From contig CALBUD010000051.1 of assembly GCA_937968065.1 (NCBI GenBank), forward strand, positions 1 to 32,000: a stretch of DNA of 32,000 bases. Direction: 5' to 3'. Of the stretch, positions 1 through 29,174 are shown in pieces. The notes under the pieces were generated by a model. The model saw only the letters and a list, made by a program, of their open reading frames with translations. It searched no databases and had not been told where the DNA came from. How positions within the stretch are numbered: the stretch's first letter is position 1; every line of letters starts with the position of its first letter. The stretch is from Candidatus Iainarchaeum sp. Its GTDB lineage: Archaea; Iainarchaeota; Iainarchaeia; Iainarchaeales; CSSED10-239. The position numbers and the translations under genes were made by a program.

Positions 1-423
1 GGCGAGCTTTATGTAAAAGGTCCAAGTGTCTTTGGAGGTTACTATAAACAGCCCCAAAAAACAAAAGAAGCCCTTACGAGTGGCGGATGGCTTAAAACGG
101 GTGATTTAGTTAGCGAAGATAGGGATGGTTATCTAAAATTTGATAAAAGAAAAAAAGAGATCATTGTCCTTTCAACAGGTAAAAATATTGGTCCGGCTCA
201 CTTAGAAGAGATGATGCAGATGTCGCCACTTATAAATCAGGCCTTTGTTTTTGGCGATGAAAAAAAGCACGTTGGAGCTTTAATAATGCCAGAAAAGGAA
301 AAGGTTAAAGGACTTGATAAAAAAAAATTAGAAGAAGAAATAAAAAAAGAGCTTGATAGATTTCTTAATAATCAGGTTTCTACATATGAGCAAGTAAGAA
401 AATTCATAATTATTAAAACTTGA
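1..423 (+). CDS. AMP-forming (long-chain) acyl-CoA synthetase/ligase, C-terminal fragment; 5'-partial at the window edge and missing the usual extreme C-terminus
   Basis: The frame is open from nt 1. The translation GELYVKGPSVFGGYYKQPQKTKEALTSGGWLKTGDL...DKRKKEIIVLSTGKNIGPAHLE...VSTYEQVRKFIIIKT* shows the GWxxTGD and RKKxxI..S.GK signatures of the adenylate-forming superfamily. Family members normally continue about 35-45 aa past the '..KKF' position; here the ORF ends at TGA 421-423. The single Trp is TGG. GC is about 43% in the first 120 nt by hand count. Confidence 0.8.
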   Translation, partial: GELYVKGPSVFGGYYKQPQKTKEALTSGGWLKTGDLVSEDRDGYLKFDKRKKEIIVLSTGKNIGPAHLEEMMQMSPLINQAFVFGDEKKHVGALIMPEKEKVKGLDKKKLEEEIKKELDRFLNNQVSTYEQVRKFIIIKT

Positions 424-429
424 ATATTC

Positions 430-2604
430 TCATTCTTTAATAGATTTATCATTTTGTATATTATTATATACATTATTAATTACTTTTATTTCTGAAGTAT
501 TTATATGATGTTTTGATTTAAAAATGTTAGTAATTAATGATTTTTTAATTGGTTTAATTACATACTTTTCATCATGTTTTATTAAAATATAAACTAAATC
601 ATCTGTAACAGATAATACTTTATTATATTTATTACTTTTACCATCATTATATCCAATATAATCTCCTTTTTGAATTGGAAAGAATTTTCTACCAGTTGAA
701 ATATTATCATGAGTTTTTAATATTTCAGTTTTTTGTTGTCATTCAGCTTCAGTAAATTCATCTTCAAATAAACTTCTGTGAGTTTCTATTGTTTTAACTT
801 TATCTGTTGAAATAAAATTTTTATCATGTAATTTTTTATTTCTATCTAAAAAGTCATTACCTAAAATTGCATTAGGAAATACTTGTTTAACAACTCTTGC
901 ATGTTGTTTATTCTTTCCAGATTTTTTATCAAAATAATCATAGGTTATAGTTGCTCCTCTTATTGTAGCATCTTTTATTAAATCTGGAGGTAAATATTCA
1001 TCTTTATCAGATACTATTATAATAGATTCACTTTTTGCTAATGCTTCAGCATTTTTTTCTTCAATAAGTGTATTTTTATTTTCAAGTTTTCTATAAGTAA
1101 CTTCAACTCTAGATATATATTCTTTTTTAGCATCAGGCTCATCTACTTGTTTTATTCTATTTAATTCTCTATTTAAACTAATACTTGCTCTTGGAACAGA
1201 AATATATTTTCCATTTTCAACATAATAACCAGACATAGTTACTCCTTTACTATTCATAACCATATTATTATATGGAACTATATATCTAGAAATAATATCT
1301 CCAAATTTATCTTTTATATCAACAAGTATTAAATCTTCTTCAAAATTAATATTATTTCTAAGATGATTATATATATCTTCTGGAGTAGATAATAATTTTG
1401 TTATTTTTTTACCATAATAATAATCTCTTACTGAAGAATCAATTAAAGGTAATATCGAATTAGATTTTTGTAATTTTGCTAATTCAATATCTTCTTTTAC
1501 TTCGTTTATATATTGTTCTGATTCTTGTTTTTGTTTTGCTGTAATTTTAGATTCAAGTTTATTAGAATCCATTAATCTAAATAATATATGAATTCCTTTT
1601 TTAATTGAATTAATATTTTCTTCTTTTGATATAATTGGAGCAAGTAAATCTACTAATTTATTTATAGTAGTTTTAGCAGAGTTTTTATATCTAAATATTT
1701 TATTAAATTCTGGATCAATAAATTCATTATCTTCAGTAAAATGACCAATAAAGAATTTTTCTACATCTAAATCTGTTAAATCAATTCTTAATTTTTCATT
1801 TAATGAAGCATTATATTCTGTAAGTATTTCTAATAAATCATCTTTATTTATTTTTGTAGATATAGATTTAATTAAACCCATAAATAAAGATAAATCATTA
1901 TTGCTATTATGAAAAATTAAATGTCCTTTAACATTTTCATCTTTTACAACAACTGCATCATAAGTATCTGAGTCAAATTCTAAATTAAAAAATACTTGAG
2001 TTTTTCTATCATCTCCTTTATAATAGTTATTTATTAATTTTTTAATTAATTTTACTCCTTCGTGATTAATTGAAAGATCTCTTAAATCTTTTTCTTTGTC
2101 TGATAAATCATTAATTATATCTAAAGGAGAATTTACACCCTTTAAACCATTATAATTTATTTTAGATAAATATTTCTTTTGAATTGGATCATTTAATTTA
2201 TCTAAGAAAGTATTAAAAGTAATTTCAGTATATCTAGTTGATTTAGGTCCTTGATATAAAATTTTATCTGATTTATAAAATACATTTTTTCTTAATGCTT
2301 CAATTAATCCTACGTTTCTACTAGAACCTTCAAGTAATCTATTGAGATTATTAATTAAAGTATCTTTTTTAGATTTTTTAATAATAGATTTTATTACACC
2401 TCTTTGAAGTCCTGTATCAAATTCTAGTATTTTATCTATAAGTTTAGAGTCATCTTTTATTTGTTTACTGACTTCATAAAAAGATTCTATTTCTTTTTCT
2501 AGACTTGCATATAAGTCTTTATCAGAATCATTTATAGGTACAAGGCTAGCGGGCACTTTAACTTGCCCGCCGCCTGGTAACTTAATATAATAATAACATG
2601 CCAT
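430..2604 (-). CDS. Hypothetical virion-module protein (about 724 aa with TGA 739-741 read as Trp); 3' end uncertain
   Basis: ATG 2602-2604 overlaps the TAA of the upstream gene (TAATG). The ORF-track fragment 739..2604 ends at TGA. The same frame then stays free of TAA/TAG for a further 103 codons of non-repetitive sequence (..ILKTHDNISTGRKFFPIQKGDYIGYNDGKSNKYNKVLSV..) in about 20% GC DNA. The next TGA is at 430-432, and the first TAA (328-330) lies inside the synthetase fragment. The N-terminus is MACYYYIKLPGGGQ. Confidence 0.6.
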
Positions 2605-5600
2605 TAATCGCAGATAAAATTGATTAATAAATTTCTACTTTTCAATATTGATAAAATATTATTTGTTATAATATATTTAGAACTATCTTTAATTGTACTT
2701 TCTTCTATAAGAGTATTAATTGGAAAATTTCCATTCTTTAATACAATTTCTTTTCCTGATTTTTCCAATCTAAGTCTACCTTTATTATGTAATAACAAAA
2801 ATATTATATCTTGTTCTAAGTATTTTTCTAAATTATTTTTTAATGTTTTTTCTTCATCAGTTTGAGCATCCATTTCAATATCAAATACTTTAATTTTTCC
2901 TAAATCCACATTACTGTAAAAATTTAAGAAATTATAACCTAAAGTATTTTCATCTTTAATATAATCTTCAAACAAAGGAGTCAATCGTTTATCTCCATAA
3001 CTTTCATTATTAACTATAAGATTGTATAAATAAAATAAATCTTTATATTTAATAAGTCTGCCTTCTGCATTTCTAATTTTATAATTATCATTTATAGTAG
3101 AATCAACTTTATTAAAATTACTTAATAGTTCTTGAAACTTATCTATATTTATTGGTGAATTTAATTCATTAATTGGGAAAGTTGAAGTTATTTGAGTTGT
3201 TCAATGTCCTATTGAATTTCTAAGACTACTTAATTTTAAATTTTTAGCCAAGGGTGAATCTGATTTTTTTAATATTTCAAATATAACATTTTCCATTAAT
3301 ATTTTAAAATTAGCTATTCCATAATCAGTTTTTAAATCAATTACAAAATCTGTATTAGGAGTAACTACTTGAATATCATCTGGATATAATTCTGGATTTT
3401 TTTGAATATCTCCAATAGCTAAATTTTTAGCATTATTTGATTTATAAAATATTACAGATTCAATACCAGATGTTTGTATTAATTTTTTAGCATTAAATCT
3501 AATATGATCATTGTCTGTTTGTTTTAATCATTTTGATATAGTAAATTTATCAAAAGTAACTAAAGCTCTACTTAAAATAAGATCATTTATTTTTATACCA
3601 AAAGCATTATTTCCAAATCTTCCATTTAATACACTATTATTTAAATCAAGAATTTTTTCAATATTATCTTTAATAATATCTCTTGAAGTTGAGAAAGCAA
3701 AATTATATTTAGCAGATACTAAACTTAATGTATTATGAATTGTACTAACTCCAGAAACCATTGCTTTAAAGTGAGGAGAATTTTCTATTACATCAAAAAC
3801 ATTAATTGTATTTTTAAATAAATTATAATACTCTATTGTTGCTTTTCTATAATCATCATTTGCTTCATCCATATAATATCTAAAATCAAATTGACCTCCA
3901 ATTAAACTAACAGTTTTAGTATCAGGTTTTCCTTCTTTAGTTATATAATTAACTTTTATAGAATTTGCTTTAACTAATACTTCTTTTACATAATTACTTA
4001 CTTCATTTAAATAAAATTCTTTTTCTTCTTTAGTTTGTGCATTTTCTGCTAATTGTTTATTTTTATCGTCTTTTAATTTAAGTAAAGAATTTGATTCTAT
4101 AATTTTTTTAATTAATGTTGTTGGAACTTTATTAATTTCTATTAATTCATCTCATTTTGCAGGATTTCTTAATAAAACTATTTGTCTATTTAAAACAGAA
4201 TGTTCTCTAGCATACATACCAGATTCCAAATTAGATAAGAATCTATTTAACTCATCAACATTAGCAGCAGTTTTTTGATTTACTTTTAATATCTGAGCTA
4301 AAAATTTAAATTCTTGAGCACCTTCATATATTTCTCTAAATTGTTTTACTTCTTCTTCTTGACCTTCATTTTCTTGTAAATATTTAGTTAATAAAGCATC
4401 AACATAAACAGATTTAGATGATTTAAAAATATTACCTCTAATATTATTACTTATATATTTTCCTATTGGAGAATTCATATAAAGAGCAACATCTTTAATA
4501 CCATAACCTAAAGACATCAAATATAAATGCATAGATGCTAATTCAACTACCGCATTAATTTTTGACATAACTAACTCTTTAGCGTTATCAGTTGCTGCAG
4601 AAATAATACCTGATATTTCTAAAGCTGCCTGAATTTCAACATCAATTTCAGAAAGTTGTTGTTGTAATTCATCATAACCATAAATATTGAATATAGTATT
4701 CATATATTCTTGGCTTACATTAGTATTAGCTATTGTATGAATTAATTTTTTATTACCATTAATAGTAAATTCTTTTCTAAATACTTTATTATCATTATAA
4801 AAATTTATAGCTTCCTTGTCTATTAATACATCATTTTTATATAAATGTGTGTATCAATTATTATAATAATTACTTAAAGCCAAGAATACTTTTTGACCAT
4901 TTGCTCCAATACCTACGTCAGCTTTACCAACAGAAGCATCTTCTTGTTGTTTAAATGGTGAAATCCAATCTCAATTAGAAAGTAAATCTTCAGTATATTT
5001 TAATTGTTCTTTAGCAGCTTCAGCAGCTTTGTGTATAGAATCTATGCTAATTGGTTCAGAAGCAAATAAGAAATTACTTGGAGTACTAATGATTTCTTTA
5101 ATTTTAGATACAATAGAATTTCTAATAGCATTTCGTTTATAAATATATTCTGTACTTGTATTATGTTTATTTATAATATTTATATATAAATCAATAATTT
5201 TAGAATTATTAGCATATAAATTTTGATTTACAACTAAAGTATTATTAGTTTGTTTATCATCATTATTATTAGATTTTCTTAATACAGATATAAAATCTCT
5301 TATAATACTTAAAGGAAACATTGAAGATAATTTTTCAGGATCAGTTTCAGTTATATTATTTGATTCAATAAATTGAATAAAATTACTTATTTCTGTATCT
5401 ACATTATCTATGTTTGAACCTGAATCAACCGTTATTTCTTTACCGTTAGGTAAAGGAATTCTTTCTAAAATATCTAATTCTTCTTTAGTACTATAATCAA
5501 ATAAAGGAGTTCCTACTTCATAATGACCATTTTTATTAAATCCATATCCCATCATATAAGATTTATCAATATCAAAGTCAGAACCTTGATATCAAATTTG

Positions 5601-8600
5601 AAATATAGATACATAAGCATCATTTGATTCAGTATTAAAATATGCAACATTTTTCATTGTCATGAACGATTGCATAGATTGAGCAGGAATACGAGCCGAT
5701 ATTGTTTCTAAAGATTTTTGCCAGCTTGCAAATTTTTTATTAGATAATGTTTGTAAAACTGTTTGTATATTTTTAGATAACCAAGAAGAATCTAAAACAT
5801 CAGAATCTCTTTTTCTATAATTATAAAATTTTGAAAATATTTTAAAAGTTTCTTCATTTATATTTATAGGTTGATTATTTCTATTTATAGTATTAGTAAT
5901 TAAATCTTTATTATCATTATTTAATAAAGGAACTATAGCAGAAATATCTTCATCAAATGATCTAATAAAATTCCATAAAGAATATTGAAGATTTACATTT
6001 AATTGTCTAAATTTATTTGTTTTATTAGTTGCTTCATCTACAACTTTAACTTCTTTACTAATTTTTACATAAATAATATCAACTCCATTTTTATGAACTA
6101 CTTTTGAATTTTTAGGTTTTGTATATAAAGTTCCTCCAGTTGAAGAAATTCTTCTTAATTCTGTTTCTCCAGTTTCATCATTTGTTTTAGAAACAAATAA
6201 TTTAAGATTATCTTGTTCAATAGGTAAATCATGTACAAATTTAATATATACATTAGGATTTCCTTCAGATAATACAAATTTTAAATCAGCATTTGTATCA
6301 TCTTCTTTAAAATTAGATTCTAATTGTTCAATAAAATATTCAGGTCCAGTAACTTCGTTTATTGATTTACCTTTAATATCAAATGCTGAATATATTTTAG
6401 GTAATATTACTTCTGCAGGAATATGATTATAATTTTCAACTCTAACAGTATTTAATTCATTATATAATTTTTTTGCATTTTCTCACGGAGTAGATAAATT
6501 ATCTCCTTGTGGAAAATATATATTAAAATCAATAGGTAAATTAGAATTTGTTCTAGGAATCATTATTCTTCCTGAATCTAATAATTGAGTATTACGTTTA
6601 GTTCAAGCATTTAATTTTTTATCTAATTTATCAAATGATTCGTCTGTACCATTTAAAGGAATTTTAGCTCATTCAGCAAAAGATGTAAGATGTTGTAAAT
6701 ATTTTGGATTAATAAAAGTTTTATCTTTATCAGCCTTTTTAAAATTTTCTTGAAAAGTATTTAAAACAAATCTTAATTTTACTGAATCTAAATCAAATTT
6801 ATTATAATAAATTCCATTTACTGTAAATGTAGTTTCATCAGGTTTTAAATCTCTCGGAGCATTATATATTTTAACAACTTGATCTGATAAACTATTTACA
6901 TTTGTTTTAAAATTATAATATTTTTCAAGTGTATTTAAAGTAACAGGTTTACCATCAATTAAAATAGTATCTCAAAGATTAACTTCACCTACTGTTATAT
7001 TATCATTGGGAAAAAATGTTTCTAAATATTTATCTAATATTTGATTATTTGAAAGAACTTTAACATCAGGAAGACTAGTTCCTCATTTAAAAGCTAATTT
7101 TCTTAATTCACTTTGTTTATATATTTTTCCATCTTTCCCTTGATATAATTGAACTATACCGTGAGAAGGATTTATGACAGCACCAAGACCAGGATAATAA
7201 CGAGTTATAAATTCATTATTCATTTTTGTAATCATCTCTCTAGTAAAATCTCTAAAGAAGTGTTGATTACTAAACGGTAGTAATTGACCTATTCCAAAAG
7301 TTTCAGCTATTGTTTTTGCTAATGTTGTTCCTTCAGAATTTGCTAAATTATATGCAAATTGTTTAGATAAAACTGTATAAAAATCATTAATTTGTTTTTC
7401 AGTTAAATTATCAGAACTAGAATAATATTTTTTAGAAGATTCTTTTATTATTCTTGCTATATCTTGATATACTTCATTAGCTAAATAAGCAGTTGTAGGA
7501 TTTTGAGCAAGAGCAGATATAATCTGAGTAATTTCTTTTATTTTAGATTCATTTGCTGAGTGATTAGCATCTAACTGAGGTCCAATATAATCATTTTTAA
7601 ATGTAGTGTAAGTTAATCTTTCATTACTTTCTCATAATCGAGAAGGATTTAGATTAATTTGTCCAGATTTAAAAGAACTACCATTAGATATAAAATGAAT
7701 CATTTTATCTTTTAAAATATATTTTCCATCATTATCAACATAAGATGTTACTAAATCATATATTAAATCATTTGATCCTTCAGAAAATTCTAAATCTTCT
7801 GTAATAGTATCAGCTCCTCCAAATGCTTTTCATATATCAAATAAATTTTTTACTTCAGTCTCGACAATTGGTTTAGAAAGAATACCATTAAATTGTTTTG
7901 TATCAGGATTATAAGAATTACCTAATATAACAATTTTACCCTTAGAAATAGCATAATTATTTATTTTATAATAATTTCCATTTTTATAAAATCCTATAAA
8001 TGGTAATTCTTTTGAAGTATATTCTAAATCTGAAGGTAAATCAAATGCAGATAACATTTGATCTTGTTTATTTAACATATTAACTTCAGATTTTGAAGAA
8101 TCTCTAATTACTTCATTTGTTATTACAAATTCAGCATCCTTTTTAAGAGAACTTCCATAAGGACTTATAAAAGTACCAATTTCCTTTTTAGTACCTTGAT
8201 AACTTTTACTTGGAAAAGATTCTTCAATCATTCTAGAATAAGCATAATTTATTCAAGTTGATCCATCATGAATATCTTGGGTATGAGTTTTTCCAGATAA
8301 ATTACCTAACTTTGCACTACGATCTTGTATAATTGCTCCATTAATTTTATCAGGAACACCTAATTGATAATTCTTAATAGGAATTTCATAAGTAGCTGTA
8401 AAAGATACATTACGCTTACTCATGTTAGGAAGTCTAAAAGACATTTCTTTAAAGTACTCTGTTCAATGAAGTTTATTTTTATCTATATCACCTTTTTTAA
8501 TATCTTTATCAGATAAAAATTTAGAATCAATAAAATTATCTCCCCTAAATTTTAATTTAGATTCTTTATCTTTTGATTTAAAAGGGTGCATATATTCTGG

Positions 8601-11600
8601 TTTAGTAGTAATATATAAATATTCATGTTTGAATAAATTGTTTACTCATAAACCTCTTTTTAATAAAGGATTTAATAAACCTGTTTTAGATTTAATTAAT
8701 ACTCCTTCTCCTTTAACAACAAAATTAGTCTGAAAAGATTTTTTATCAATTCCGAAAGTAGTTAATAAACTATTTAAACTTAAATCTTTTTCTTCCATTT
8801 TATCTAAATCACCAGATGAAAATAGATATTCACTATTAGAATATTTAATTAATTTGTTTATTAAAGAATTTTCAGACTCTTTTACAAAATGATTAAAATT
8901 ATCCTTATTTTCAAATATGAAAAAATTATCAATAATAGGTTGATTTAAACCTAGCCTAATAGATTTTCCATCTTCTGGAGATACATAAATTGAATAATGT
9001 AATTCTCCAGAAATATTAATAGAATCATCGTTAAGTCGTTTAGTTCTAATATGTTCTAATAAATCATTTAAAGTTTTAAATTCTTTTAAGAAATCATTTA
9101 TTTTCTTTATATTACTTTTTATTATTTTTATATCAGGATTAGCAACATTAACATTGCTAATTTTAACTCCTAATTTACTATATTGATCAAATATATTTCT
9201 TACTACATCTCAGTAATAATTATATGATTGAGTTCTAACTAATTCTAATAAATTAGTTTGAGTCATTACATTTTTACCACTATTATTACCTATAATATAT
9301 TCTCCGTTATGTTTAATATTTTTATCTATTATCTTATTAACAATAGAATTTTTATCTGAATAATTACCAATCATAACATTTATTCCACCTACTTTTGATG
9401 TAGGTCTAAAAACATCTAAAAAGTCATATTCAAAACTTGCAGTAAAACTTTCTAAAGCTGTTCAATTAAAAGCTGTTTTACTTTTATCTTCATTAATAGC
9501 TTCTAATTTTGTAGAAGTTCCTAATAAACCTCCATCTTGTAAAAATAAATTTCTATATTGTTCAGAACCAGTTTGTTCTAATAAATGTCTTTCTAATAAT
9601 ACATTTCCATCATCAAACATTAAATTTGCAAGTTTAAATGTTGGAATTTTTTCTCCTGTACTTGTAGTAGTAACCATTATAGCTTTCATTGGCTGATTTT
9701 CCAAGAAAATATCTAATATATCTTGAATTTTTTGACTTAATTTAGAAATTACTTCTGATTTAGATTTAACTTCAGCCTTTGTTAAGTCAGCAATATTTTC
9801 TTCATTTTCTTGAATAGCTTCTAAAATACCCTTTTGACCTTCTTCTTCTGATTGTCTAATTGAAACTAAAAAGTCTCTAACATACCTAGCAACTTTTTCT
9901 TTATTCTCTCCCTCATTAAATTTAGGATCTTTTAAAGCTTCCATTAATTTAAATGCTCCTTCTGGTCCTAAATATATACCTAATTTAGCATAAATCATAT
10001 TAGATAACTTTTGAGGAGTATCTGTTTGTTTTTTAATATTTTCAATTTCTTTCTTAATATTCTCAGACTCTTTAGCTGCATTTTCAGATGTAGAAGATAC
10101 TCCAATTCAAAATTGATTAGGAAGAGTTGTTCTTTGAGACAAATAAGAATATATTGAATTTTGTAAGTCAACTCTAGTTGCATTATGAGAGTGCATTTCT
10201 TGAAGTTCTAACTTACCTGTATTTTGATTATATACTGTATAATTTGCTCCGTATGAATTATTTACTACTTGAGATACTATATTTAAAATTGATCTTTTAG
10301 AATTTTTTTCTTTTGTTGCATTTTTAGTTAAAAAAGAATCCAAAGATCTTAAAACTCCAATTTTATTATTGAAAGTTACTGCATTTCTATTATTATATAA
10401 AGAATCTTCAGATACTCAATTATCTCCATCTTTAGCTTCAAGTATATTATGAATATACCATTTTAACATTCTTAAAGGATCTTTAGAGAACAATGTTCAA
10501 TTTTCAAATCCAAATGGGTGAGTATCTTTAGTATCACCTAATTTAGAAAAATCATCATCTCTTAATTTAATTAATTTATTGAAGTTTAATATTTCAAAGT
10601 TTTTTATAAAAGCAGCTAAAGAATATAAATCTTTTCTATCTAAATATAAACCAGTAAAATCTCCATTATTATCTAATAAAGGAATAGATTCAATAATAGC
10701 ATCAGATAATTGATCGCGAATTTCTTCTACTGATTCTGACATATGTTCTTCAGTTTTCCAATATTCTGTAGACTTTCCTTTAGGAGTTAAAGAATATTTA
10801 CTAGAACTGCCTCCATAATTAAAATCATTAAAATATTTTACGTCAATTTTAATAACATTGTTATAATATTTATAAAGAATATTATCAAAATTAACTAATA
10901 ATATTGCAGCATTATAAGCATCTAATTTTAATCTATCATTTATATTAGATATACTTCCTGTTAGATCAGGTATAATTTGATCAAATATATTTACTACAGC
11001 ATTAACGTTATTTTTTCCTAATAATGTTTCTTCTAATATTTTTAAAGTATCTTTATATAAATCATAGTTTTTAAAGTTACCTCTAAAATCATATAAATTT
11101 GCTATAAATTTATCTTCTTTATAATATTTACTTATGTTATCAATTTTTCCTAATTCTTTTAAATAATCAACAATAGTTTTAAATAATTTATTTTTTAATG
11201 ACTTAATATTATTATTAACATCAAAGTCACCTCTTACATAAGTTTCTATTGGATTTCCTTTTTCATCTTCTTCGGGATTAAATATAACAGCTTCTACAAA
11301 TTGTTGATTTAATCGTTTTTCAAAATATTTTTTAGCAACATGATAATCGCTAAATAAATCTACAATTAAAGGTGAATTAAAAATAGATTTTACATTAGAT
11401 ACTTTTTTAGAAATTACTTTCTTTCTAATTTGAGGATCTGATGCATTAAAATTATAATTTAATCGTTTAAAAACTTTTTCAATTCTATTATAAGAACTTT
11501 CAGTAAATTCTTCTTTTATCTTTTTTAAATTATAATCATTTCCTAAAAGAGAACGCACATATTCTAGTGCGTTCTCTCATGAAGAAAAACTTCCATTTTC

Positions 11601-11663
11601 TAATTTAGTCTCTAATTTTGATACTACTCTTCCCTGTAAATTAGGGCTACAAATATCGCTCAT
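2604..11663 (-). CDS. Giant protein (3019 aa) with a two-barrel (DPBB) RNA-polymerase-like catalytic motif; candidate virion-packaged RNAP
   Basis: I hand-checked frame 0 from ATG 11661-11663 (upstream TAA 11667-11669) to TAA 2604-2606 and found no TAA/TAG. It contains 22 in-frame TGA codons: 3201, 3528, 4152, 4854, 4971, 5592, 6483, 6603, 6669, 6972, 7083, 7632, 7830, 8253, 8463, 8646, 9210, 9462, 10107, 10416, 10497 and 11577. This joins ORF-track pieces 2604..2984, 3528.., 4152.., 4971.., 7830.., 8253.., 9462.., 10107.. and 10497... The motif ISARIPAQSMQSF-(25 aa)-QGSDFDIDK lies near aa 2029. Confidence 0.8.
5565..5579 (-). other. DFDID (DxDxD) putative metal-binding triad of the RNAP-like protein
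   Basis: The codons gtc/aaa/atc/aat/atc on the plus strand read D-F-D-I-D on the minus strand. This lies 38 residues after an R-I-P (5685-5693). For comparison, bacterial beta-prime has R-A-P ... NADFDGD at a spacing of about 35. Confidence 0.6.
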
Positions 11664-11672
11664 TTTTTATTT

Positions 11673-14600
11673 TTATTGACAGTTTATAAATAAATTATCA
11701 AGTGAATCAGAATCAGAATGATCTATTCCTAAAGTTTTAAAAATATAACTAGTTAAATCATATTGAACAGTATGATGATCTGAATTTTTAGAAGTTAAAT
11801 TATAATAATGGTCTAATAGTAATGAAGATTCTTTCGGAAATTCATTTAATATTTCATATAATGATTTACCATTAAATACTTTATTTCTTCATTTACTGAT
11901 TAATTGATTAAATATTAATTTATCTTCTTCACTTAATTCATCGAAATTTTGATGAATAGTTTTAAGATTATTTAATAATGCTTCTACTGGTTTGCTCGAA
12001 TTTTTATTAACAATTTCAGTTATTTCATCAAAAACTATTTCAGGAGTTAATTCTGTTTTTTCAGTATTTAAACTTCTTAATTTTTGTTCTAAGTCAGAAA
12101 TATAAATATTCATTCCTTCTTCAAAAGATGTACTTTCAGAAACACCTGGTAATGTTGATAGATTAGATATATCAGTTAATCCTTGCAAAGTATATTCTGT
12201 ATTCTTTTTATGTTCTAATATATCTTTAATTAAAGTTGCAACTTTAATTTTTAAGTTTAATCTTTCTTTTGTATCACCTGGTTCATCTTTAACTATAGCT
12301 TCACCACTATATTTTATTGATTTTAATTTAGTAATAAGTTTAGTTATTTCTGGGTCTATTTTGTCTTTTTTGTCTTTTTTCTTAGCAATGATTACATTAT
12401 CGGATAAATCTAAATTCAAATAAGGACCTTCAGGAGTTAATGTAATAAAAGTATTTGATAAATTACTATCAACATCTTTAATTTTAAAACCTTCTCCATC
12501 TTTAGTTATGGGAATATTATAATAAAATTTATCATTAAATTCATTAGATCAGAATTTAAGCATTTGATCAATAATTTTTATTTGACTTTTATAAACTTGA
12601 ATAGTTTCGTCAAAATAATTACCAACTTCAGCTTCATAAAGACCAAGTGTATGATTCATTTGATCATAAAATGAAAATATATTCCAGAATTTAGTTGACC
12701 AATATTTCTTATCGGTATAACCTTGAATTTTTCTTACTAATTTAGTTTTTAAATTTTTTTCAGTAAGAGTTGTTTTTGATTTTTCTGCAATAGTTAATTC
12801 ATTTTCAATTAATAAATATACTTCTCTTAATCTAGAATGTTGTCCTTTTTCTTTATGAGTCATATTCTCAATTAAATCCTTAGAAACAATTTCATTTATT
12901 AATGATAATAATTCATTATTTTTTATATTCTTTCCAGCTAAATCCTTATTAGATTCTTGTATAAGTTGTTTGCCAGTTTTGAAAAATTCTCTAAATAACT
13001 GAGGTTGTTTTACAGCCATTCTAACTAACATATCTAATACTTGATTAGCATTAAATAATGTTTCTGTAACTGGAAATACTTCATCTTGTCGTTTAGATAA
13101 AATTAATTGTCTTGCTGAAATAGGAGTTTTTAATCCTAAAGGATTTCTTATAGTTTCTTGTATTTGTTTTATTGTTTTAGTATTAGACTTCAACAATACA
13201 TATTGAACGTGAGATTTATCCTTTATAAATGTAACTGCTACATAAGGTTTACCTTTATATCCAGAATTAGTTCCTTTTCCATAAAACAATTCTTTTAATT
13301 TTTCTTCAGATATTGGTTCACCAAAGGTTATTTCAGCATATTTTTGTTTAAATTTTTCAAAAGTATTAGGAAATATTTTAATTGCTGGCTTTTTAACATA
13401 TTCCGTTCCATCAAGAAATAATAAACCTTTAAATTTAGATAATTCTTCTAAAGAATATTTTACAGGATTATCATCACTTTTAACAAGTCTAGTAGAAGTT
13501 TTTACATTGATTTTAGTTGGATCAATTTCAACTTCATCGTCAATAGAATTAATAAAATTTTCAAATTTATCTCTAGATTCTTTGTCTTTTTCAAATCAAG
13601 TATTTACTGTATTAAGTAATGGAAATGTTGCTAATTGTACATAATATTCTTTTGAACCATTACTAACTTTTAACATTAAGTTATAATAATCATCTCCATC
13701 TTCTAATGGTGAAGTTTTATCTAACTTTTTATCAAAAGCTGTATTATATGCTTTATAATATGTAGATTTTTTTACTACTAATGTACTTTGTAATTTACTA
13801 GTATCTCCAAATATAGCTTTTAATACTGTATTTAATACTGGAGGTTGAAATTTATTTTTTCCAGTTGATTTAGAAGTTTTCCAAATATCATATTTTAATC
13901 TAACAAATTCTTCAACATAATTATCAAAATCGGCTTCATTAAATCCGTCTGTTGGTTGAATATCATATAAGAAAGATAATCCATAAGAAAAACTACTATT
14001 TGGATTCTTTTCAACAAATACTTTTCCACCTTTCCTGGTAATATTTATATCTAAATCATTATAAAAAGTATGAAGTCTATATTTAAAAGATTCTTTTTCA
14101 AATTCAGGATCAAATTTTTCTTGTGTTAAAGTTTCTCCTGTATATTCAGAATCTCCATCATCTTCATCAGTTAAATCTAATTCTGATTTAGAAAATTTAA
14201 AGAAATCATATTTAATATCAAAATTTGGATTTAATATTTCTTTTAGTTTATCAATTCTTTTCTTTTTATCTTCATCAATTACATTTTTCTGTAATGGAGT
14301 TACAAATACTGTAGAACTTTGTTGTTCATTTTTCAATCGAATTATGCTAGTATCAGGATTTGTAATTTCACCTTCATTTAATATTATAGTAGCTTGTTTA
14401 GACCTTGTACTATAAGTATATAATCTTCTTAAAGAATCTAATACGTGTCTACCTTTTATAAATGAATTAGGTAATATAAAATAATCTACTTCAGATCCTT
14501 GAATATTACCTTCAGTAAATAACTTAATATTAGCTTTAGTAATACCAAAAGCTTCAAACTGTTTTTCTAATTCTGGATCTAATTCATTAATATTATTAGA

Positions 14601-17600
14601 TAATACACCAATTTTAGTTTCAGGTTTATTTTTAATAATATTTCTTAATGTATTTAATACATCATTAGGAATTAAATTAGTACTAGAAAGTAAAGTTCCA
14701 GTTAATACTTCAGGAGATAAATGATATTTTAATAATATACCATTATCTATCATATCCATTATAGCTGGAGTATCTTCAGCAGATGAAAATATATTTATTG
14801 ATCGTTTAACTAATGCAGATAAATAATCATTATTTTCTCTTTGTTGAGAATTAGCTGCCCTAACACTTAGGGATAATTGTGGTGAAAATATTCCAGATAC
14901 TCTATCAATATTATAAGATACATTTTCAACTTTTTCATTAGTAATACCTAATTGAATATAATCACCAGCTCCTATAATTTTTAATTTATTTGTTCGTTTA
15001 GAATATTCATTAAGTAATTCTAATTCTAAAGCATCAAAGTGAGATATTTCATCTATAAATAAAACATCAGGCAAATTAGTTTTAGTTAAATCAAAATTAA
15101 TTTTATTTCAATCTTTAATAACTATTTTTTCAGCTTTATTTTCAGAATTAGGTATAGCTATTTCTACTATTTCTACTATTTCAGAATTATTAAAATCTTC
15201 TGCATAAATTTGTTCAAGAATTTTATCAATTCCTAATTCTTTAAATAATGCAGATTTAATAAATTTTTCTTTAGTAAATAAAGTATGATCAATACTACTT
15301 AATACAGAATCATATAAATCATTAGTTTTATCTAAACTTGGTGCTGAAAATCAGATATTTAAATTAGGATTATTATTTTGTAAAAGTAAAGTTATTATTT
15401 TAAATAATACTGCTGTTTTACCAGTTCCTGCATCACCTAAAATATAAGTTATTCTGTCTGTTAAATGTGCAAGTTCACTTTGTGTATCAATTATTATTTC
15501 TGAAAATAAATCTGGTTCAATAATTGAAGCATATATTACTTTAGTAGAAAATTCTTGAGTAAAAAATGGAGATTTATCAAATGAATCTTTTTCTAATATA
15601 GAAACTAATCTATTATTAAAATCATATGAATCAACAGATAAACTAGTAACTAAATACAATAAAAAATCATTATTACTAATAGATTTAATATTTTTATCAA
15701 TTCTATTACTTCCATCTTTATCATATAAATCATATAATATATTTTTAAATTTAAATATTCTTGCTAATTCTTTTACTACTTTAATTCTATCTTCTTTAGA
15801 ATAAGTATTATAATGTTCAAAGAAAAGATGTTCAATTTCTAATAATTTTTTCTCATCATCTAAATTAGAATCTATTAATTCTGATAAATCAGGAAATGAA
15901 GGAACATCTGGTTTTTCTTTTATAACAACCTTTCAAGCATATAATAATTGCTCATTTGTTTTTTTCCTTATTTCTTCTTCTTCTAAGAAAATTTGTCCTG
16001 AATTATTTCTAGATAAATATACTAGAAATTCTAATTTATTTTGAATTCTTTGTAATTCTAAAATTACTAAATTAGCTATATCAGAAGATATAGTTTTTAA
16101 TTTTGTAATATCAGATTTAGTATCATGTTTTTCAGCAAATCGTTTTCTTGCTTCAATAAATCCTATAGGATCTTCACTAGAAACAGTAGTCATACTAGTA
16201 CCTAATACAATAGACCTAAGCATCTTTAAAGCATCAATTGCTTGTAACATATCTTTTTCTTGAAATCCGGCTTTAATATAATTAGTTGGATCAGAAGCAT
16301 TAAAAAGAGTTAAGTTTTCATCCCTTAAAATATCAACTATTGTTTTTTGCCTTTTTTCTTTTTCATCGTCTAAAGATAATAAAAAATTATTTAAAAATTC
16401 ATAAATAGTATTAGGAATAAATTTTTCTTTATTATCTAATACTTCTTTTAATTCTTTTAACTTGTTAATTGTATTTTTATTTTGTTTTACTTTTTTATTT
16501 ATTTCTGAAAGTTCATTTTCTAAAGCATACATAGTAGCATCAAAATTTTCAGAAGTATTTAAAATATCCATGATATAACTTGGAAAAGTATCCCAAAACC
16601 CCATATCGTTTTTATAATCTTCTATAGAATCTTTAAAATCTTGATTAATAGTAGAAATATTAAAAATTAAATCTAATAAATTTTCATTTGAAATTGTAAT
16701 TTCTTTAAAAAAGTCTCCTTTAAAATTAGATATTATTTTTAAATAAATTTCTTCTAACTTATTAAATAACTCTTTATCTAAGTTACCTGAATCTTTAATT
16801 TCTTTTAATATTGCATCAAGAGTATAGTTGATTGGTTCAAATACATTAAAATCCTCAGCCTCTGTTGTTATTTCTGATTCTCTTTTTACATATTCAGAAT
16901 AATTATTTTTATATATATCAAAAGTAGAATGTATTTTATCTACAATAGCTTCAATTTGAGATAATTTTGAATCAGAATCAGACATTATTAATTCAATTAA
17001 TGAATTATCTCCGGGATTAGTTAAAGCAAAAAATTCAATATATTGTTTTAATGCTTCTTTAAGTTCATCATTTGTTAAATCAGATACATCTTTTTTAAGA
17101 GTCTTAGCAAACTTATCAAGAGTATTTTTATGTGTTTCTAATTTTCAAGTAAGCATGTCTGAAGAGAAACCATTAACAAGTTCAGGAGTTAATCCTAATC
17201 TTACCATTTCATTATTAAGGAAAAAAGCTATTTGTCTTTCTTTTTCATCTAACTTTTTATCTCCTTGAATATAATGTAATGCTACAATAAGTTTTTTACT
17301 TTCTAAATCCTTAATTTGTTGATCAATCTCATTAGAATTTTCTTCTGTTTTTTCTGCTAACAATTCTTCTTGTTTTCTTTCAAGACCATCATTATATGAT
17401 TTAATTGTATCATTAAACATAAGTGCTATTGAATTGAAATCTAAATTATCAGTAGGTAATTGAGAAAGAGTACTTTTTAAAACTCTTTGTATTATTTCTC
17501 TTCTTGTAGCTTTTTCTTCACCTTCAGTTAATTCTTGATCTAAATAAGTATCTGATAAAGGATTTCCTGTAAAGTCAACAATAAGTCCTTTTTCTTTAAA

Positions 17601-20483
17601 CTTATCATAAGCGTCTATTGATAAAGAATCTCAAGGATTTGATCTTATACCAGTATTGGTTTCAACCATCTTCTGAATTTTTAATCAATTAGCAACTGAT
17701 TCTTTTGCAGCATTTGCATCTTTTACATTAAACATTTTAAAGTTTGTTGCTATATCTAGAAGATTTAAAAATGTTTTTCTTCGTTGTTCAGAGTATCCAG
17801 ACTCAGAATAATCAAAAAGTGGTTTATTTAATTTCTTTTCTAAGTCCTTATAAACATTTCAAGCAACATCCAAATTTTGTCTAAAATTTACAATATCTTT
17901 AGAACTTTCTCATTCTTTTTTAACTAATTCTTTAGTAATTCCTAATCCAGATTCTGGAAGAGTATGATATTCTTTATTATAACGTGCTTCTGTAAAACTT
18001 GCTAAGTCAATTGCTAAAAATGCTTTACTTATATCTTTTTGTAAATATAAGTTTATTTTATCAAAATAATCTTGGGCTCTTTTACCTTCTTTTATATCAG
18101 TTACTTCACTTCTATGTCATTCTGCTTTTTCTTGAAGTTGTTTAATCGCTTCTTTATTACCTTCTTTGTCTTCTGATAATTTTTGAATTTCAGCATTTAA
18201 TTCAGTAAGAGCGGCAGCATGTTTTCTAAAGTCTTCAACAATTATTCCTTCTATCCCAAGTTTATCTTTTTCACTAATTGTGCCAGCTAAATCTCTAATT
18301 ATTAAATAATCAGCCATAGCCTTATCAATTAATTCTTCATCACTTAGAATTAACCCTTCTTTATTCATTAAACCATCTATATCTTTTATCATAGCTATAG
18401 TAATATCTGCTACAACATCTGCATGAGAATAACCTTCTTTATCTGTTGCTGTAGTTTTACCTTCAACTACAAAAGGTGCAATATATTTATTACCTAAATT
18501 TTTTCTTAATTTATTTACTTCATTTATTAATAAATCTGTTTGTCCATTTCCAATCATTTCATATACTGATTGTCTTGCATCAAACGATATTTCTTGATTT
18601 TTTAACCAAGGTTTAGATCTATTAAGTTCAAATAAAGCACCACCTAATACACCACCCATTAATGAAGCTGCATATCTTTCTAAACCAGATAAAGAAAATA
18701 CATTCTGAAATCCTCCAAAAGTTCCTCTCTTTTTAGTAAGTCCTAAATGAGACATTACATCTACAACACCTTTAGTGGCATCAATTACTAGTTCTTCTGA
18801 TACTTCTTCAATACCTTCAATTATAGCATTTTTTCAAAGAGCTTCTCCAATAACAGATGTATTAGTCATCATATCAGAAATATTACTCTTCCATCCTTTA
18901 ACTGCTTGAGCAAGTTTAGCTTTACCTTGTGCTGTTCCAGATGCTTTAATTCCTGCTTCAATTGGTTCCATATATCCTTTTAAACCTTTTCTCATTAAAG
19001 CTTTATTAGTTTCAACAGTATATCCTGTAGTTTCATCTAAAAATCAATCTCCCATTCTATTGTTCATCATAAGAGCATAAGTTCCTGTAGCTGCAAGTAA
19101 ACCTGCAAAACCAGCAGTTCTTCTATCATATCCTCCTTCTAATGCTTCTCCATATATACTTGCTGTTGAAGTTAAAGCCATGTATCCTAAAGAAAAGGAT
19201 TTAGCCATAGCAGATTGTTTTCTTTGAATTTCTTGTAAACCTGGAACTTTTGAAGCTAATTGAGAATGTATAAGTTTTATTTCATCTTCATCTATTTGAC
19301 CAGTACCTCATTTTTTAAAAGTTGTTTCATTTACTTTACTTATTAATCTTTGCTGATCAGCAGATAATTTAACTTTAGAAGGATGGTAAAATAACTTAGA
19401 TAATGAAGCCATTGCTCTTTGTTCATATATTTGACTAAAAATATCTGCAACCATTGTAGATATTTGTTCATAGTTAAATAAAGAACCTTGTGCTTCATCA
19501 CTAGTAGAAGTTGCTGCAAACTTAGCCATATAATTTTCTGCAGCTGTTGCTACATGATTTAATTTACTAGTTTCTTCTCCTAATATAATACCTTCTAAAG
19601 ATTTATATAAAGTAGGAAGTGCAGAAGAAAGCCCAATTGCAGCTTTTACTGCTCCATAAGGTAATGCTACACCTGGAATAAATAATGGTGCTATTTCTGC
19701 AGCAATTTTTAAAGTAGTTTTAATAGCATTAGCTTCTTTATTATCTGCATCAAATATATCAAAACTATTTGCTAAAGTACCATCAGTAGTTAAAGCATCC
19801 ATAGGATTAACTACTTGTTTACCATAAACTTCTCTTTTACCTAAAGTTTCTACAAATAATTCTCCATCATTATTTACTTTCCAATCTCCTTTAGAATGTT
19901 TAACCATTCTATTACTAACAGGATCTAAATGTGTTCCATCTTCATCTCACTGTGCATAAACTAAAGTTTGACCAAATAATTTACCAAGAACACTTCTGTC
20001 ATTTACAGATTCTTCTAAAAATTCTCCTTTTTCAGTATCAAATATTTTTCCTCTTTGAGCAAGTTCTCTTAAAGAAAAATTACTTTCGTCCACACTAAAC
20101 ACATCTGTTTTTCCATATGTTTGTTTAAATGGATTAAAATCTTTACCATATTCTACACTAACATTAAAAGTTTTAGCTTCTTTTGGACGTGTAATATCAA
20201 AAGGACTATATCAAACTTGATCGAGAGAATTAAGATAGTCAACTTCAGTTAATCTATTATAGTGTCCTTCAGCAACATCATAAAATTTGTCAAAAGATAA
20301 ATTATCAAAATTTCCATCTTCTGTTGTAAACATTTTTTTAATAAAAGGAAATTCTTTATATTCATCTTTAGTATATAAAGATGTATTTTCAGGATTTATC
20401 TCTGACGACATTAAGTCATATGTTGTTGCCATAGGATTATTAATTGTAGCAACAAATATATCATTGGGTTTCTTTAATTCCAT
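11673..20483 (-). CDS. Giant protein (2936 aa): N-terminal Gly/Ala-rich hydrophobic (ejection/membrane-type) region plus an internal Pif1/RecD-like SF1B helicase core
   Basis: I hand-checked frame 0 from ATG 20481-20483 (upstream TAA 20496-20498) to TAA 11673-11675 and found no TAA/TAG. It contains 17 in-frame TGA codons: 11889, 12549, 13596, 15108, 15351, 15933, 17145, 17631, 17685, 17859, 17910, 18117, 18834, 19044, 19308, 19947 and 20211. This joins nine ORF-track pieces. Confidence 0.8.
14379..15437 (-). other. SF1B (Pif1/RecD-like) helicase/ATPase core inside the 2936-aa protein
   Basis: - Motif I: ILGDAGTGKT (15414..15437).
- Motif II: VLFIDEISHF (about 15045..15065).
- Motif III: IIGAGDYIQLG (14946..14972).
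- Motif V-like: FTEGNIQGSEVDYFIL (about 14480..14525).
- Motif VI-like: LYTYSTRSKQATIIL (14379..14420).
Order and spacing are as in SF1 helicases. One TGA (15351) and a second (15108) fall between motifs I and II. Confidence 0.7.
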
Positions 20484-20484
20484 G

Positions 20485-26591: not shown

Positions 26592-26620
26592 ATTATATGC
26601 TGTATTAATTGTTTTTAATT

Positions 26621-26655
26621 AAAAAAATAAGGGAAGACAGATTCTGTCTGCTCCC
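26621..26655 (-). terminator. Putative intrinsic terminator or attenuator after the 88-aa gene
   Basis: The minus strand reads GGGA-GC-AGACAG-AAT-CTGTCT-TCCC, followed by TTATTTTTTT. That is a 6-bp plus 4-bp stem with a 2-nt bulge and a 3-nt loop. It starts about 10 nt after TAA 26666-26668 and sits in the only sizeable non-coding gap (26592..26665). Confidence 0.5.
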
Positions 26656-26665
26656 CTTATTCAAA

Positions 26666-26932: not shown

Positions 26933-26940
26933 TTTTAAAA

Positions 26941-27516: not shown

Positions 27517-27656
27517 TTTTTATAATCTATGAAAGAAAGTTTACCTTGATTTTTAAGTACATTTTTTAAATGAATTGCTTCATTTCAATCATTTGTTTCT
27601 AAATGAGTTATATATTTTTTCTTCTCTATATTATAAGTAATAACTCAATATATCAT
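27504..27656 (-). CDS. Small hypothetical protein (50 aa)
   Basis: ATG 27654-27656 overlaps the upstream TAA (TAATG). The stop is TAA 27504-27506, giving a 13-nt overlap with the DUF192 start. There are two in-frame TGA codons (27645, 27585). The sequence is MIYWVITYNIEKKKYITHLETNDWNEAIHLKNVLKNQGKLSFIDYKKWIK. Confidence 0.4.
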
Positions 27657-27922: not shown

Positions 27923-27923
27923 A

Positions 27924-29171: not shown

Positions 29172-29174
29172 AGT

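What the first reader, a model, noticed from the sequence alone, without database searches (positions are those of the whole stretch)
2604..11663. A 3019-aa single-ORF protein carrying a two-barrel RNAP-type R-x-P...DFDID catalytic signature
Seen: one uninterrupted frame (with TGA=Trp) of 3019 codons. Around aa 1990-2033 it reads ISARIPAQSMQSFMTMKNVAYFNTESNDAYVSIFQIWYQGSDFDIDK.

Established: the catalytic double-psi beta-barrel of multisubunit RNAPs, of eukaryotic RNAi RdRPs (QDE-1), of phage YonO, and of the virion RNAP of crAss-like phage phi14:2 (gp66) has a metal-binding DxDxD loop. An R-x-P strand lies roughly 35 residues upstream of it (beta-prime: RAPTLH...NADFDGD).

Inference: this is a virion-packaged, injected RNAP. 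At about 3000 aa it is much larger than the ~2180-aa phi14:2 gp66 that I recall. About 2000 aa lie N-terminal to the motif and about 1000 aa C-terminal, both of unknown function. It may therefore be a fusion of what are separate cargo proteins elsewhere.
Basis: partly seen in the sequence, partly recalled or inferred. Interest (0 to 1): 0.7.

Follow-up and report, generated by a model that had tools for sequence, protein, structure and literature searches.

The report
Divergent crAss-like phage virion RNA polymerase
This 3,019-residue gene, readable only if TGA codes for tryptophan, is a very divergent relative of the RNA polymerase that crAss-like gut phages pack into their particles and inject to start infection, so it adds a new member to a known enzyme family and is not a new kind of system.

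Summary
It runs from ATG 11663 to TAA 2606-2604: 3,019 codons with 22 in-frame TGA, shown here to encode Trp. DFDID is at aa 2029-2033.

The RNAP interpretation is supported:
- RIPxQxxQS and GSDxDxD are invariant in an 18-sequence core alignment that goes down to about 20% identity.
- An AlphaFold model of aa 1070-2250 has phi14:2 gp66 (6vr4) as best PDB match, followed by RNAP beta-prime chains.
- Profile comparison with six bona fide Crassvirales RNAPs gives E = 4e-15. It aligns the catalytic loop, bridge helix, trigger loop, Connector and N-terminus co-linearly with gp66.
- Gene order (tail stabilization protein, helicase giant, RNAP, downstream protein) matches phi14:2.

The first barrel is supported by homology (E = 5e-6) but not by its own fold search.

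The size and fusion ideas are not supported. Reference Crassvirales RNAP proteins are 4,070-4,491 aa. No similarity to gp65 or gp67 was found. The extra length lies in insertions spread along the protein.

TGA recoding, giant size and introns in this motif are already published for crAss-like phages. Verdict: new member of a known kind, low to moderate interest. Virion packaging is inferred from orthology and gene position.

The parts
2604..11663 (-). Gene for the 3,019-aa RNAP (ATG 11663-11661, TAA 2606-2604; 22 in-frame TGA read as Trp)
   Evidence: full-length homologs
11634..11663 (-). N-terminus MSDIC... Cys5 is nearly invariant in the family, and the start aligns with gp66 MACK...
   Evidence: low alignment confidence, 3-6 of 9
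10644..10766 (-). aa 300-340: conserved N-terminal block aligned with gp66 217-259, overlapping and adjoining gp66's Cleft-blocking domain (196-233)
   Evidence: alignment confidence 8-9; landmark
7146..8432 (-). aa 1078-1506: region homologous to gp66 ~888-1250 (position of the first barrel plus Connector). Invariant K1083, R1084, D1133, G1134, K1160, K1175, K1332, N1339, H1368, Q1380. Contains a beta-rich insertion at about aa 1185-1310
   Evidence: hhalign E = 5.4e-6, prob 86%; fold search of this piece alone not significant
5532..5717 (-). aa 1983-2044: catalytic (beta-prime-like) double-psi barrel segment, aligned with gp66 1314-1376
5667..5693 (-). aa 1991-1999: RIPAQSMQS (R, P, Q, Q and S invariant); counterpart of gp66 RIPNQGQSS and, from my own knowledge, of beta-prime RAPTLH.../Rpb1 RQPSLHKMS
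5565..5579 (-). aa 2029-2033: DFDID, predicted Mg-binding catalytic loop; aligns exactly with gp66 1361-DFDID-1365
4896..4991 (-). aa 2225-2256: bridge-helix-like segment (…SPFKQQEDASVGKADVGIGANG), aligned with gp66 1524-1553 (bridge helix 1529-1559)
4437..4619 (-). aa 2349-2409: trigger-loop-like segment (ISGIISAATDNAKEL…), aligned with gp66 1602-1662 (trigger loop 1598-1636)
   Evidence: (E = 1e-9)
2973..4352 (-). aa 2438-2897: C-terminal region with blocks co-linear with gp66 1722-1773 and 1924-1966; function unknown, as in gp66
11673..20483 (-). Upstream neighbour ORF C, 2,936 aa, with an SF1-helicase-like P-loop module at aa ~1670-2033. It occupies the position of phi14:2 g067; the C-then-B order is conserved in L001
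328..2604 (-). Downstream neighbour ORF A, 758 aa. Its ATG overlaps the RNAP stop (TAATG). It occupies the position of phi14:2 g065, but no sequence similarity was shown
29175..32000 (-). ORF G (5' end outside the window): homolog of phi14:2 g071 and the crAss 'tail stabilization protein'. It marks the start of the conserved tail-to-RNAP gene order

Best explanation
The gene encodes the single-chain, two-barrel DNA-dependent RNA polymerase of a crAss-like phage, the ortholog of phi14:2 gp66.

Shown here: it is homologous to gp66 over the catalytic barrel, bridge helix, trigger loop, Connector/first-barrel region and N-terminal block. The catalytic residues are invariant. The gene lies in the same late tail/virion operon.

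Inferred, by analogy with gp66:
- The protein is made late, using a phage- or host-supplied opal suppressor that reads TGA as Trp.
- It is packed into the capsid in a self-inhibited form, together with the neighbouring giant proteins.
- It is ejected into the host with the DNA.
- The three aspartates of DFDID then bind Mg2+ at the interface of the two barrels, and the enzyme transcribes the phage's early genes independently of the host polymerase.

The ~840 residues it has beyond gp66 are lineage-specific insertions of unknown role.
For: - Motif conservation: R, P, Q, Q and S of RIPxQxxQS, and G, D, D and D of GSDxDxD, are invariant in the 18-sequence core alignment. G[SA]DxDxD is complete in 94 held members, and at least 36 of the other 93 held sequences stop inside the motif.
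- Structure: AF2 model of aa 1070-2250 with pLDDT 78.9 and pTM 0.79. Foldseek top PDB hit is 6vr4_A, phi14:2 virion RNAP (prob 0.99, 754 columns), followed by about 45 RNAP beta-prime/A chains and the Thermus-phage two-barrel RNAPs. The viral-library hits are giant proteins of crAss-like phages, including phi14:2 and a 'putative RNA polymerase'.
- hhalign: core profile vs gp66, E = 3e-6 at DFDID. Full profile vs gp66, E = 1e-9 at the trigger loop. Versus a 6-member Crassvirales RNAP profile, prob 98.4% and E = 4e-15, co-linear over the whole of gp66. First-barrel/Connector region, E = 5e-6.
- tblastn of 104 aa around the motif against 50,697 phage genomes: 46 of 47 records are crAss-like or unannotated human-gut 'Bacteriophage sp.' records, and every annotated match lies in a crAss-like giant gene, including g066.
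- Synteny with phi14:2 g071...g067-g066-g065. A relative carrying the same RNAP family and the same ORF G has a crAss-type TerL, portal and tail tubular protein.
- gp66 is experimentally virion-packaged, injected and transcribes early genes (paper read).
Against: - No single-sequence or profile-HMM search links it to anything: Pfam, PHROGs and PDB sequences all gave nothing.
- The Foldseek E-value to gp66 is only 2.5e-3, with low TM-scores (0.11-0.19).
- The first-barrel piece on its own gives no significant structural match: gp66 is rank 2 at E = 0.34, and there are no beta-subunit hits.
- QDE-1 and YonO were not among the top hits.
- Virion packaging, injection, template specificity and activity were not and cannot be tested here.
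- The neighbours ORF C and ORF A show no detectable similarity to gp67 and gp65.
Confidence: 0.88

Rival explanations
1. It is a polyprotein. The 3,019-aa product is cleaved after synthesis or packaging into an RNAP core and one or more separate cargo or ejection proteins, so part of the N- or C-terminal mass does something other than transcription.
For: The gp66 paper says that in some crAss-like phages the RNAP and its two neighbours are fused into one polyprotein that is probably cleaved. Motif position within the polypeptide varies widely among Crassvirales, from 1361/2180 to 3433/4491. The flanking virion proteins share a short K[LY][QP]xGG motif that could be a processing site.
Against: The family profile aligns to stand-alone gp66 from its first residues to near its end. 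It shows nothing in common with gp67 or gp65. The extra length is spread over at least six insertions rather than added at one end. The K[LY][QP]xGG motif is not present in this protein.
Confidence: 0.12
2. It is an RNAP homolog that is not packaged: an intracellular polymerase for middle or late genes, like the non-virion two-barrel RNAPs of phiKZ-like or P23-45-like phages.
For: Foldseek also lists the non-virion RNAPs P74 gp62 and P32 gp64. Packaging was not tested.
Against: Its closest relative by every measure is gp66, which is packaged. The gene sits inside the tail/virion operon and is tightly coupled to its neighbours. It is TGA-recoded, like late structural genes in crAss-like phages.
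Confidence: 0.06
3. The RNAP-like motif is a relic: the protein is now a purely structural or ejection protein without polymerase activity.
For: About 2,000 of its residues have no recognisable function. The catalytic loop and neighbouring residues have low model confidence.
Against: All three aspartates, the R-x-P strand, and the bridge-helix and trigger-loop blocks are the most conserved parts of a family that has otherwise diverged to about 20% identity. That is the signature of selection on catalysis.
Confidence: 0.03

Closest known systems
Virion RNA polymerase gp66 of Cellulophaga phage phi14:2 (PDB 6VR4; Crassvirales, Steigviridae)
   Same: Single chain. Identical DFDID catalytic loop with Ile at position 4. 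RIPxQ...S strand. Bridge-helix, trigger-loop, Connector and N-terminal blocks in the same order. Same place in the tail/virion operon.
   Different: 3,019 aa against 2,180 aa, with the extra ~840 aa in several insertions (for example about aa 1185-1310, and between the Connector and the catalytic barrel). Identity is so low that only profile-profile and structure comparison detect the relationship. Needs TGA read as Trp. GC is 24%. The neighbours show no detectable similarity to gp65 and gp67.
Giant RNAP-bearing proteins of gut Crassvirales (crAssphage LMMB 'RNAP catalytic subunit/RNAP subunit fusion protein', cr8_1, cr110_1, cr113_1, cr4_1)
   Same: Same GYRIPT.G..S...GSDFD(I/V)D(K/S).Y signature and the same module. 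They belong to a 'transcription gene block' of several giant proteins.
   Different: Those proteins are 4,070-4,491 aa, with the RNAP module fused to large N- or C-terminal extensions, some annotated as helicase. In the window the helicase-bearing giant (ORF C) is a separate gene and the RNAP stands alone.
RNAP genes of Zeta-group crAss-like phages (proposed Echekviridae)
   Same: TGA-to-Trp recoding of RNAP, helicase and structural genes. RNAP ORFs interrupted inside the DxDxD motif, with LAGLIDADG intron-encoded endonucleases. More distant members of this protein family sit on 155-174-kb contigs, matching Zeta genome sizes.
   Different: Membership of the window phage in that group was not tested directly. 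Its 24% GC is below the 30-38% GC of the first rows of that paper's Table 1 that I read. The window gene has no intron.
Multisubunit RNAP beta-prime / A subunits (catalytic double-psi beta-barrel with NADFDGD)
   Same: R-x-P strand about 36-39 residues before a DxDxD loop, with the same strand-strand-strand-helix-loop-strand order in the model. Beta-prime/A chains fill ranks 2-50 of the PDB fold search.
   Different: One polypeptide instead of separate beta and beta-prime. Ile in place of Gly in the motif. Individual Foldseek E-values are only 0.07-0.5.

Membership tests
crAss-like phage virion RNAP (gp66 family) | Catalytic barrel with an invariant DxDxD loop of the DFD(I/V)D type, preceded by an R-I-P-x-Q strand | tested here: met
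   Invariant in the 18-sequence core alignment. Aligns residue-for-residue with gp66 1361-DFDID-1365 and with five reference Crassvirales RNAPs.
crAss-like phage virion RNAP (gp66 family) | Overall fold most similar to gp66 | tested here: met
   Foldseek of the aa 1070-2250 model: 6vr4_A is rank 1, prob 0.99, E = 2.5e-3, 754 aligned columns. TM-scores are low, as expected for a flexible multi-domain model.
crAss-like phage virion RNAP (gp66 family) | Bridge helix and trigger loop downstream of the catalytic barrel | tested here: met
   aa 2225-2256 align with gp66 1524-1553, and aa 2349-2409 with gp66 1602-1662. hhalign E = 1e-9 (single gp66) and 4e-15 (profile). Landmarks.
crAss-like phage virion RNAP (gp66 family) | First (beta-like) double-psi barrel and Connector in the same chain, upstream of the catalytic barrel | tested here: inconclusive
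   By homology, aa 1078-1506 match the gp66-family region ~888-1250 (E = 5.4e-6, prob 86%; E = 1.3e-4), with invariant K/R residues. The 754-column Foldseek alignment must extend at least 480 columns upstream of the catalytic barrel. However, the isolated model of this region gave no significant match (gp66 rank 2, E = 0.34; no beta subunits).
crAss-like phage virion RNAP (gp66 family) | Encoded in the late operon next to tail genes, flanked by other giant virion proteins | tested here: met
   Order G (g071-like), F, E, D, C (2,936 aa), B (RNAP), A, all on one strand with overlapping or near-abutting junctions. Same C-then-B order in L001.
crAss-like phage virion RNAP (gp66 family) | Present in the virion, injected, and transcribes early genes | not testable with these tools
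   Shown only for gp66; inferred here.
Crassvirales / crAss-like phages (the genome the gene sits in) | crAss-type TerL, portal, MCP and tail genes | tested here: inconclusive
   The window holds no TerL, portal or MCP. Its ORF G matches only crAss-like phages and MT835470/MT835492. MT835470.1 carries the same RNAP family and an ORF G homolog at 38% identity. Its TerL is closest to Crassvirales (about 30% identity, E about 1e-55), and its portal and tail tubular protein match phi14:2. No MCP match was found.
Eukaryotic RNAi RdRPs (QDE-1) and phage YonO-type single-chain RNAPs | Closest structural or sequence similarity to QDE-1 or YonO | tested here: not met
   Neither appears in the top 50 PDB fold matches or in any sequence search. 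The relationship is at most indirect, through gp66.

The most novel reading that the evidence does not exclude
The window comes from an unclassified, very AT-rich (24% GC) lineage of crAss-like phages in which every gene seen uses TGA as Trp. The code may be that of the host rather than a late-gene switch, which would place crAss-like phages, and their injected two-barrel RNAP, in a code-4 host outside Bacteroidota. In that case the lineage-specific insertions in the RNAP (about 840 aa) would be adaptations to a different transcription setting.
Probability: 0.1. Interest if true: 0.55.

Novelty: new member of a known kind. Interest (0 to 1): 0.3.

Why it matters
It shows that the injected two-barrel RNAP of crAss-like phages extends into a large, unnamed protein family: 1,128 clusters at 50% identity, with no Pfam, PHROG or database name. 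That family can now be annotated by transfer from gp66. The landmark map (catalytic loop, bridge helix, trigger loop, Connector, N-terminal block and the insertion sites) is a practical guide for annotation and for choosing constructs. It does not change what is known about how these enzymes work. Recoding, giant size, fusions and introns in the catalytic motif are already published for crAss-like phages.

Tried and rejected
- Plus-strand reading of the coordinates: full of stops.
- Codes 11 and 15: the gene is fragmented.
- TGA = Gly (code 25): rejected by column content and TGA/TGG swaps.
- Pfam, PHROGs and phmmer/hmmsearch against PDB sequences for the RNAP: nothing.
- Second word-indexed homolog search with the core profile: only more unnamed family members.
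It was redone with aa 1070-1509.
- Exact look-up of the window protein's contig: not on record. Cluster look-up gave no names.
- Fusion with gp67-like or gp65-like proteins: hhalign found nothing. phmmer of all window proteins against six Crassvirales giants plus gp65 and gp67 found nothing.
- Fold search of the isolated first-barrel region: not significant.
- ORF G against PDB sequences: nothing.
- tRNA scan, Rfam scan and promoter/terminator scans of the window: nothing above background.
- Whether recoding is limited to late genes: the three short opposite-strand genes in L001 are too few to tell.
Full report
**1. The observation**

The coordinates are right but the strand is minus. The plus-strand frame has hundreds of stops. 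On the minus strand, with TGA read as sense, the window resolves into a row of large co-directional ORFs. The ORF in question starts at ATG 11663 and ends at TAA 2606-2604. It has 3,019 codons, with 22 in-frame TGA and 6 TGG.

The quoted peptide is there, with DFDID at aa 2029-2033 (nt 5565-5579). Given the base composition of this strand, TAA or TAG is expected at 7.6% of codons. An open frame of this length therefore has a chance probability near 1e-104.

TGA encodes Trp, not Gly. The TGA positions lie in alignment columns dominated by W, F, Y or L. At seven positions TGA in this gene corresponds to TGG in the DNA of homolog P0003, or the reverse.

Independent assemblies hold full-length, co-linear homologs of 2,962-3,000 aa at 44-58% identity. 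The single long ORF is therefore not an assembly artefact.

**2. What the sequence family looks like**

Pfam, PHROGs and the sequences of all solved structures give nothing, either for the single protein or for a family profile.

The protein nevertheless belongs to a large family. Thirty-one relatives came from the indexed search. In the 1.84-billion-protein representative library, 1,128 clusters at 50% identity match a profile of aa 1070-1509, and 649 of these have E <= 1e-30.

Conservation is concentrated in aa ~1080-2400. In an 18-sequence core alignment that goes down to about 20% identity, R, P, Q, Q and S of RIPxQxxQS and G, D, D and D of GSDxDxD are invariant. So are K1083, R1084, D1133, G1134, K1160, K1175, K1332, N1339, H1368 and Q1380 upstream.

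Among the held sequences with a complete motif, the loop is DYDID, DFDID, DLDID or DYDVD in nearly all. A glycine at the fourth position occurs in only two.

**3. Structure**

An AlphaFold2 model of aa 1070-2250, built on that alignment, has mean pLDDT 78.9 and pTM 0.79.

Around the motif the model shows strand (ISARIP), strand (FMTMKNVAYF), strand (AYVS), helix (FQIWYQG), the DFDID loop, then strand (KSYMM). From my own knowledge of E. coli beta-prime (…RAPTLH-RLGIQAF…[21 protein letters not shown]), this is the order and spacing of the C-terminal half of the catalytic double-psi barrel.

Against 350,542 PDB chains, the best Foldseek match is 6vr4_A, the virion-packaged RNAP gp66 of crAss-like phage phi14:2 (prob 0.99, E = 2.5e-3, 754 aligned columns). 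It is followed almost without exception by RNAP beta-prime/A chains and the two-barrel RNAPs of Thermus phages P74 and P32.

In the viral structure library the matches are giant proteins of crAss-like phages. They include phi14:2's own protein, a 'putative RNA polymerase', and a 'Siphoviridae sp. gcode 4' entry. TM-scores are low, as expected for a long multi-domain model. I treat the ranking and its consistency as the evidence, not the scores.

**4. Residue-level homology to gp66**

The gp66 paper gives these landmarks:

| gp66 element | gp66 residues |
|---|---|
| Cleft-blocking domain | 196-233 |
| Connector | 1095-1238 |
| DFDID (Ile instead of the universal Gly) | 1361-1365 |
| Bridge helix | 1529-1559 |
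| Trigger loop | 1598-1636 |

I fetched gp66 from the phage collection. hhalign of the core profile against it aligns RIPAQ…GSDFDIDKSYMM with RIPNQ…GSDFDIDKMYVM (E = 3e-6). The full-length profile aligns ISGIISAATDNAKEL… with gp66's trigger loop (E = 1e-9).

I then built a profile from gp66 plus five reference Crassvirales RNAP modules. Against the window family it gives prob 98.4% and E = 4.4e-15. The confident, co-linear segments are:

| Window aa | gp66 aa | Element |
|---|---|---|
| 300-340 | 217-259 | N-terminal block |
| 1983-2044 | 1314-1376 | Catalytic barrel |
| 2179-2215 | 1475-1511 | - |
| 2225-2256 | 1524-1553 | Bridge helix |
| 2349-2409 | 1602-1662 | Trigger loop |
| 2438-2488 | 1722-1773 | C-terminal block |
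| 2841-2897 | 1924-1966 | C-terminal block |

A 104-aa query around the motif, run by tblastn against 50,697 phage genomes, hits 47 records. Forty-six are crAss-like phages or unannotated human-gut 'Bacteriophage sp.' records. Every annotated match lies in a crAss-like giant gene, including g066 'Catalytic RNA polymerase subunit'.

**5. The first barrel**

The upstream conserved region (aa 1078-1506) aligns with the gp66-family region just before and through the Connector. The alignment is anchored at KR, DA..IT, K.G and the PFS…IKRKY.G.G…PS block (E = 1.3e-4 in the global comparison, E = 5.4e-6 when restricted).

The 754-column Foldseek alignment of the larger model must also reach far upstream of the catalytic barrel, because only about 275 model residues lie at or after it.

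However, a separate model of aa 1070-1509 (pLDDT 71.5) gave no significant PDB match. gp66 was rank 2 at E = 0.34, and no beta subunits appeared. I therefore call the second barrel supported by homology but not independently shown.

**6. Size and the fusion idea**

The CDS carrying this motif is 4,070 aa in crAssphage LMMB (annotated as an RNAP fusion protein). It is 4,098 aa in Rudgehvirus, 4,328 aa in cr113_1, 4,422 aa in cr8_1, 4,491 aa in cr4_1 and 4,417 aa in cr110_1. The motif lies anywhere from residue 1,433 to 3,433. So 3,019 aa is mid-range.

The window family profile shows no similarity to gp67 or gp65. The length beyond gp66 is spread over at least six intervals between anchors. The protein is best read as a stand-alone gp66 ortholog enlarged by insertions.

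If anything, the situation is the reverse of a fusion. A helicase-like module, which some Crassvirales annotations place in the same polypeptide as the RNAP, lies here in the separate upstream giant ORF C (AAA_19/AAA_30/UvrD_C at aa ~1670-2033).

**7. Genomic setting**

All large ORFs are on one strand and all need TGA as sense. ORF G matches only MT835470.1 and MT835492.1 (33-38% identity) and crAss-like phages, including phi14:2 g071 and a 'stabilization protein'.

The order G…C-B-A mirrors phi14:2 g071…g067-g066-g065. The C-then-B order recurs on a 99.7-kb contig, followed there by a PD-(D/E)XK-bearing giant. The literature lists that feature as typical of crAss-like transcription blocks.

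Junctions are tight. The RNAP stop overlaps the next start (TAATG), there are 9 nt between C and B, and 1 nt between D and C.

MT835470.1 uses the standard code at 36% GC. Its TerL is closest to Crassvirales TerLs (about 30% identity, E about 1e-55). Its portal and tail tubular protein match phi14:2's.

The window itself holds no TerL, portal or MCP, so its placement among crAss-like phages is by association. The more distant family members sit on 155-174-kb contigs, like Zeta-group genomes. The window's 24% GC is lower than the 30-38% GC of the first rows of that paper's table, which is all I read.

**8. Mechanism**

Shown: homology, invariant catalytic residues and operon position.

Inferred from gp66: late synthesis, packaging in a self-inhibited state, ejection with the DNA, and Mg-dependent transcription of early genes without the host polymerase.

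Rivals:
- A cleaved polyprotein is possible but has no positive evidence for this protein.
- A non-packaged RNAP is unlikely, given the orthology and the gene's position.
- A catalytically dead relic is unlikely, given that the catalytic blocks are the best-conserved parts.

**9. Novelty**

All of the following are already published for crAss-like phages: giant DFDxD proteins, their virion location, fusions into polyproteins, extreme divergence, TGA-to-Trp recoding, and introns inside the DxDxD motif. This is a new and very divergent member of a known kind. It is useful mainly for annotating a large unnamed family.

Noticed in passing
L002 23160-24195 (MT835470.1 41966-43001); family members P0009, P0028, P0033-P0035, P0037 and others: At least 36 of 187 held family members end exactly after GSD(F/Y) inside the catalytic motif. 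In MT835470.1 the gene resumes with DIDKAYIMGY about 1 kb later. The gap encodes a LAGLIDADG homing endonuclease and has sub-threshold group I intron matches at both ends (E = 0.004 and 0.015). A self-splicing intron therefore appears to sit in the catalytic loop. The window gene is the intron-less form. This agrees with Yutin et al. 2021.
   Followed up: partly
window ORF A (aa 8-13 from its Met; nt ~2566-2583), ORF D (20485-22377), ORF E (22332-26618), ORF F (27924-29174); L001 18880-22665; MT835470.1 58740-60584 and 67022-68731: A short motif K[LY][QP]xGG (KLPGGG, KLQGGG, KYQSGG, KLQKGG) lies about 8-13 residues from the N-terminus of three virion-block proteins and internally in a fourth. 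It is conserved in their orthologs in two other phages. Four were observed in the window against 0.035 expected from shuffling. It may be a processing or packaging signal. Looser K..GG-like variants occur in the small ORFs at 26666-26992 and 27656-27928.
   Followed up: partly
window 11673-20483 (-): The upstream neighbour is a second giant (2,936 aa) with an SF1-helicase-like P-loop module (GDAGTGKT; AAA_19/AAA_30/UvrD_C at aa ~1670-2033) and a hydrophobic Gly/Ala-rich stretch near aa 260-300. By position it would be a virion protein, which raises the possibility of a helicase delivered with the DNA.
   Followed up: partly
window 22332-29174 (-): ORFs E and F contain long Gly/Ala-rich hydrophobic segments (for example WLSVGGAAASLLPGVGMAGAAVTT and GAAGAGALKALGGIGGITGLAS), as might be expected of membrane-inserting ejection proteins. 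They have no database matches.
   Followed up: no
whole window 1-32000: GC steps from about 23% (1-18000, the two giants and ORF A) to about 30% (18000-30000, the tail/ejection genes). There are no tRNA genes and no Rfam matches. Every ORF of 200 codons or more on the coding strand contains in-frame TGA.
   Followed up: partly
window 26941-27519 (-): A 192-aa ORF in the gap between ORFs E and F (…IPLDIIFIDTD…) was seen in the code-4 ORF list but not analysed.
   Followed up: no
P0005, P0006, P0020 (family members): Some homologs carry large extra insertions between the Connector and the catalytic barrel. P0020 has precomputed Pfam hits PF08719 and PF08902, so accessory domains have been inserted into the RNAP in some lineages.
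   Followed up: no
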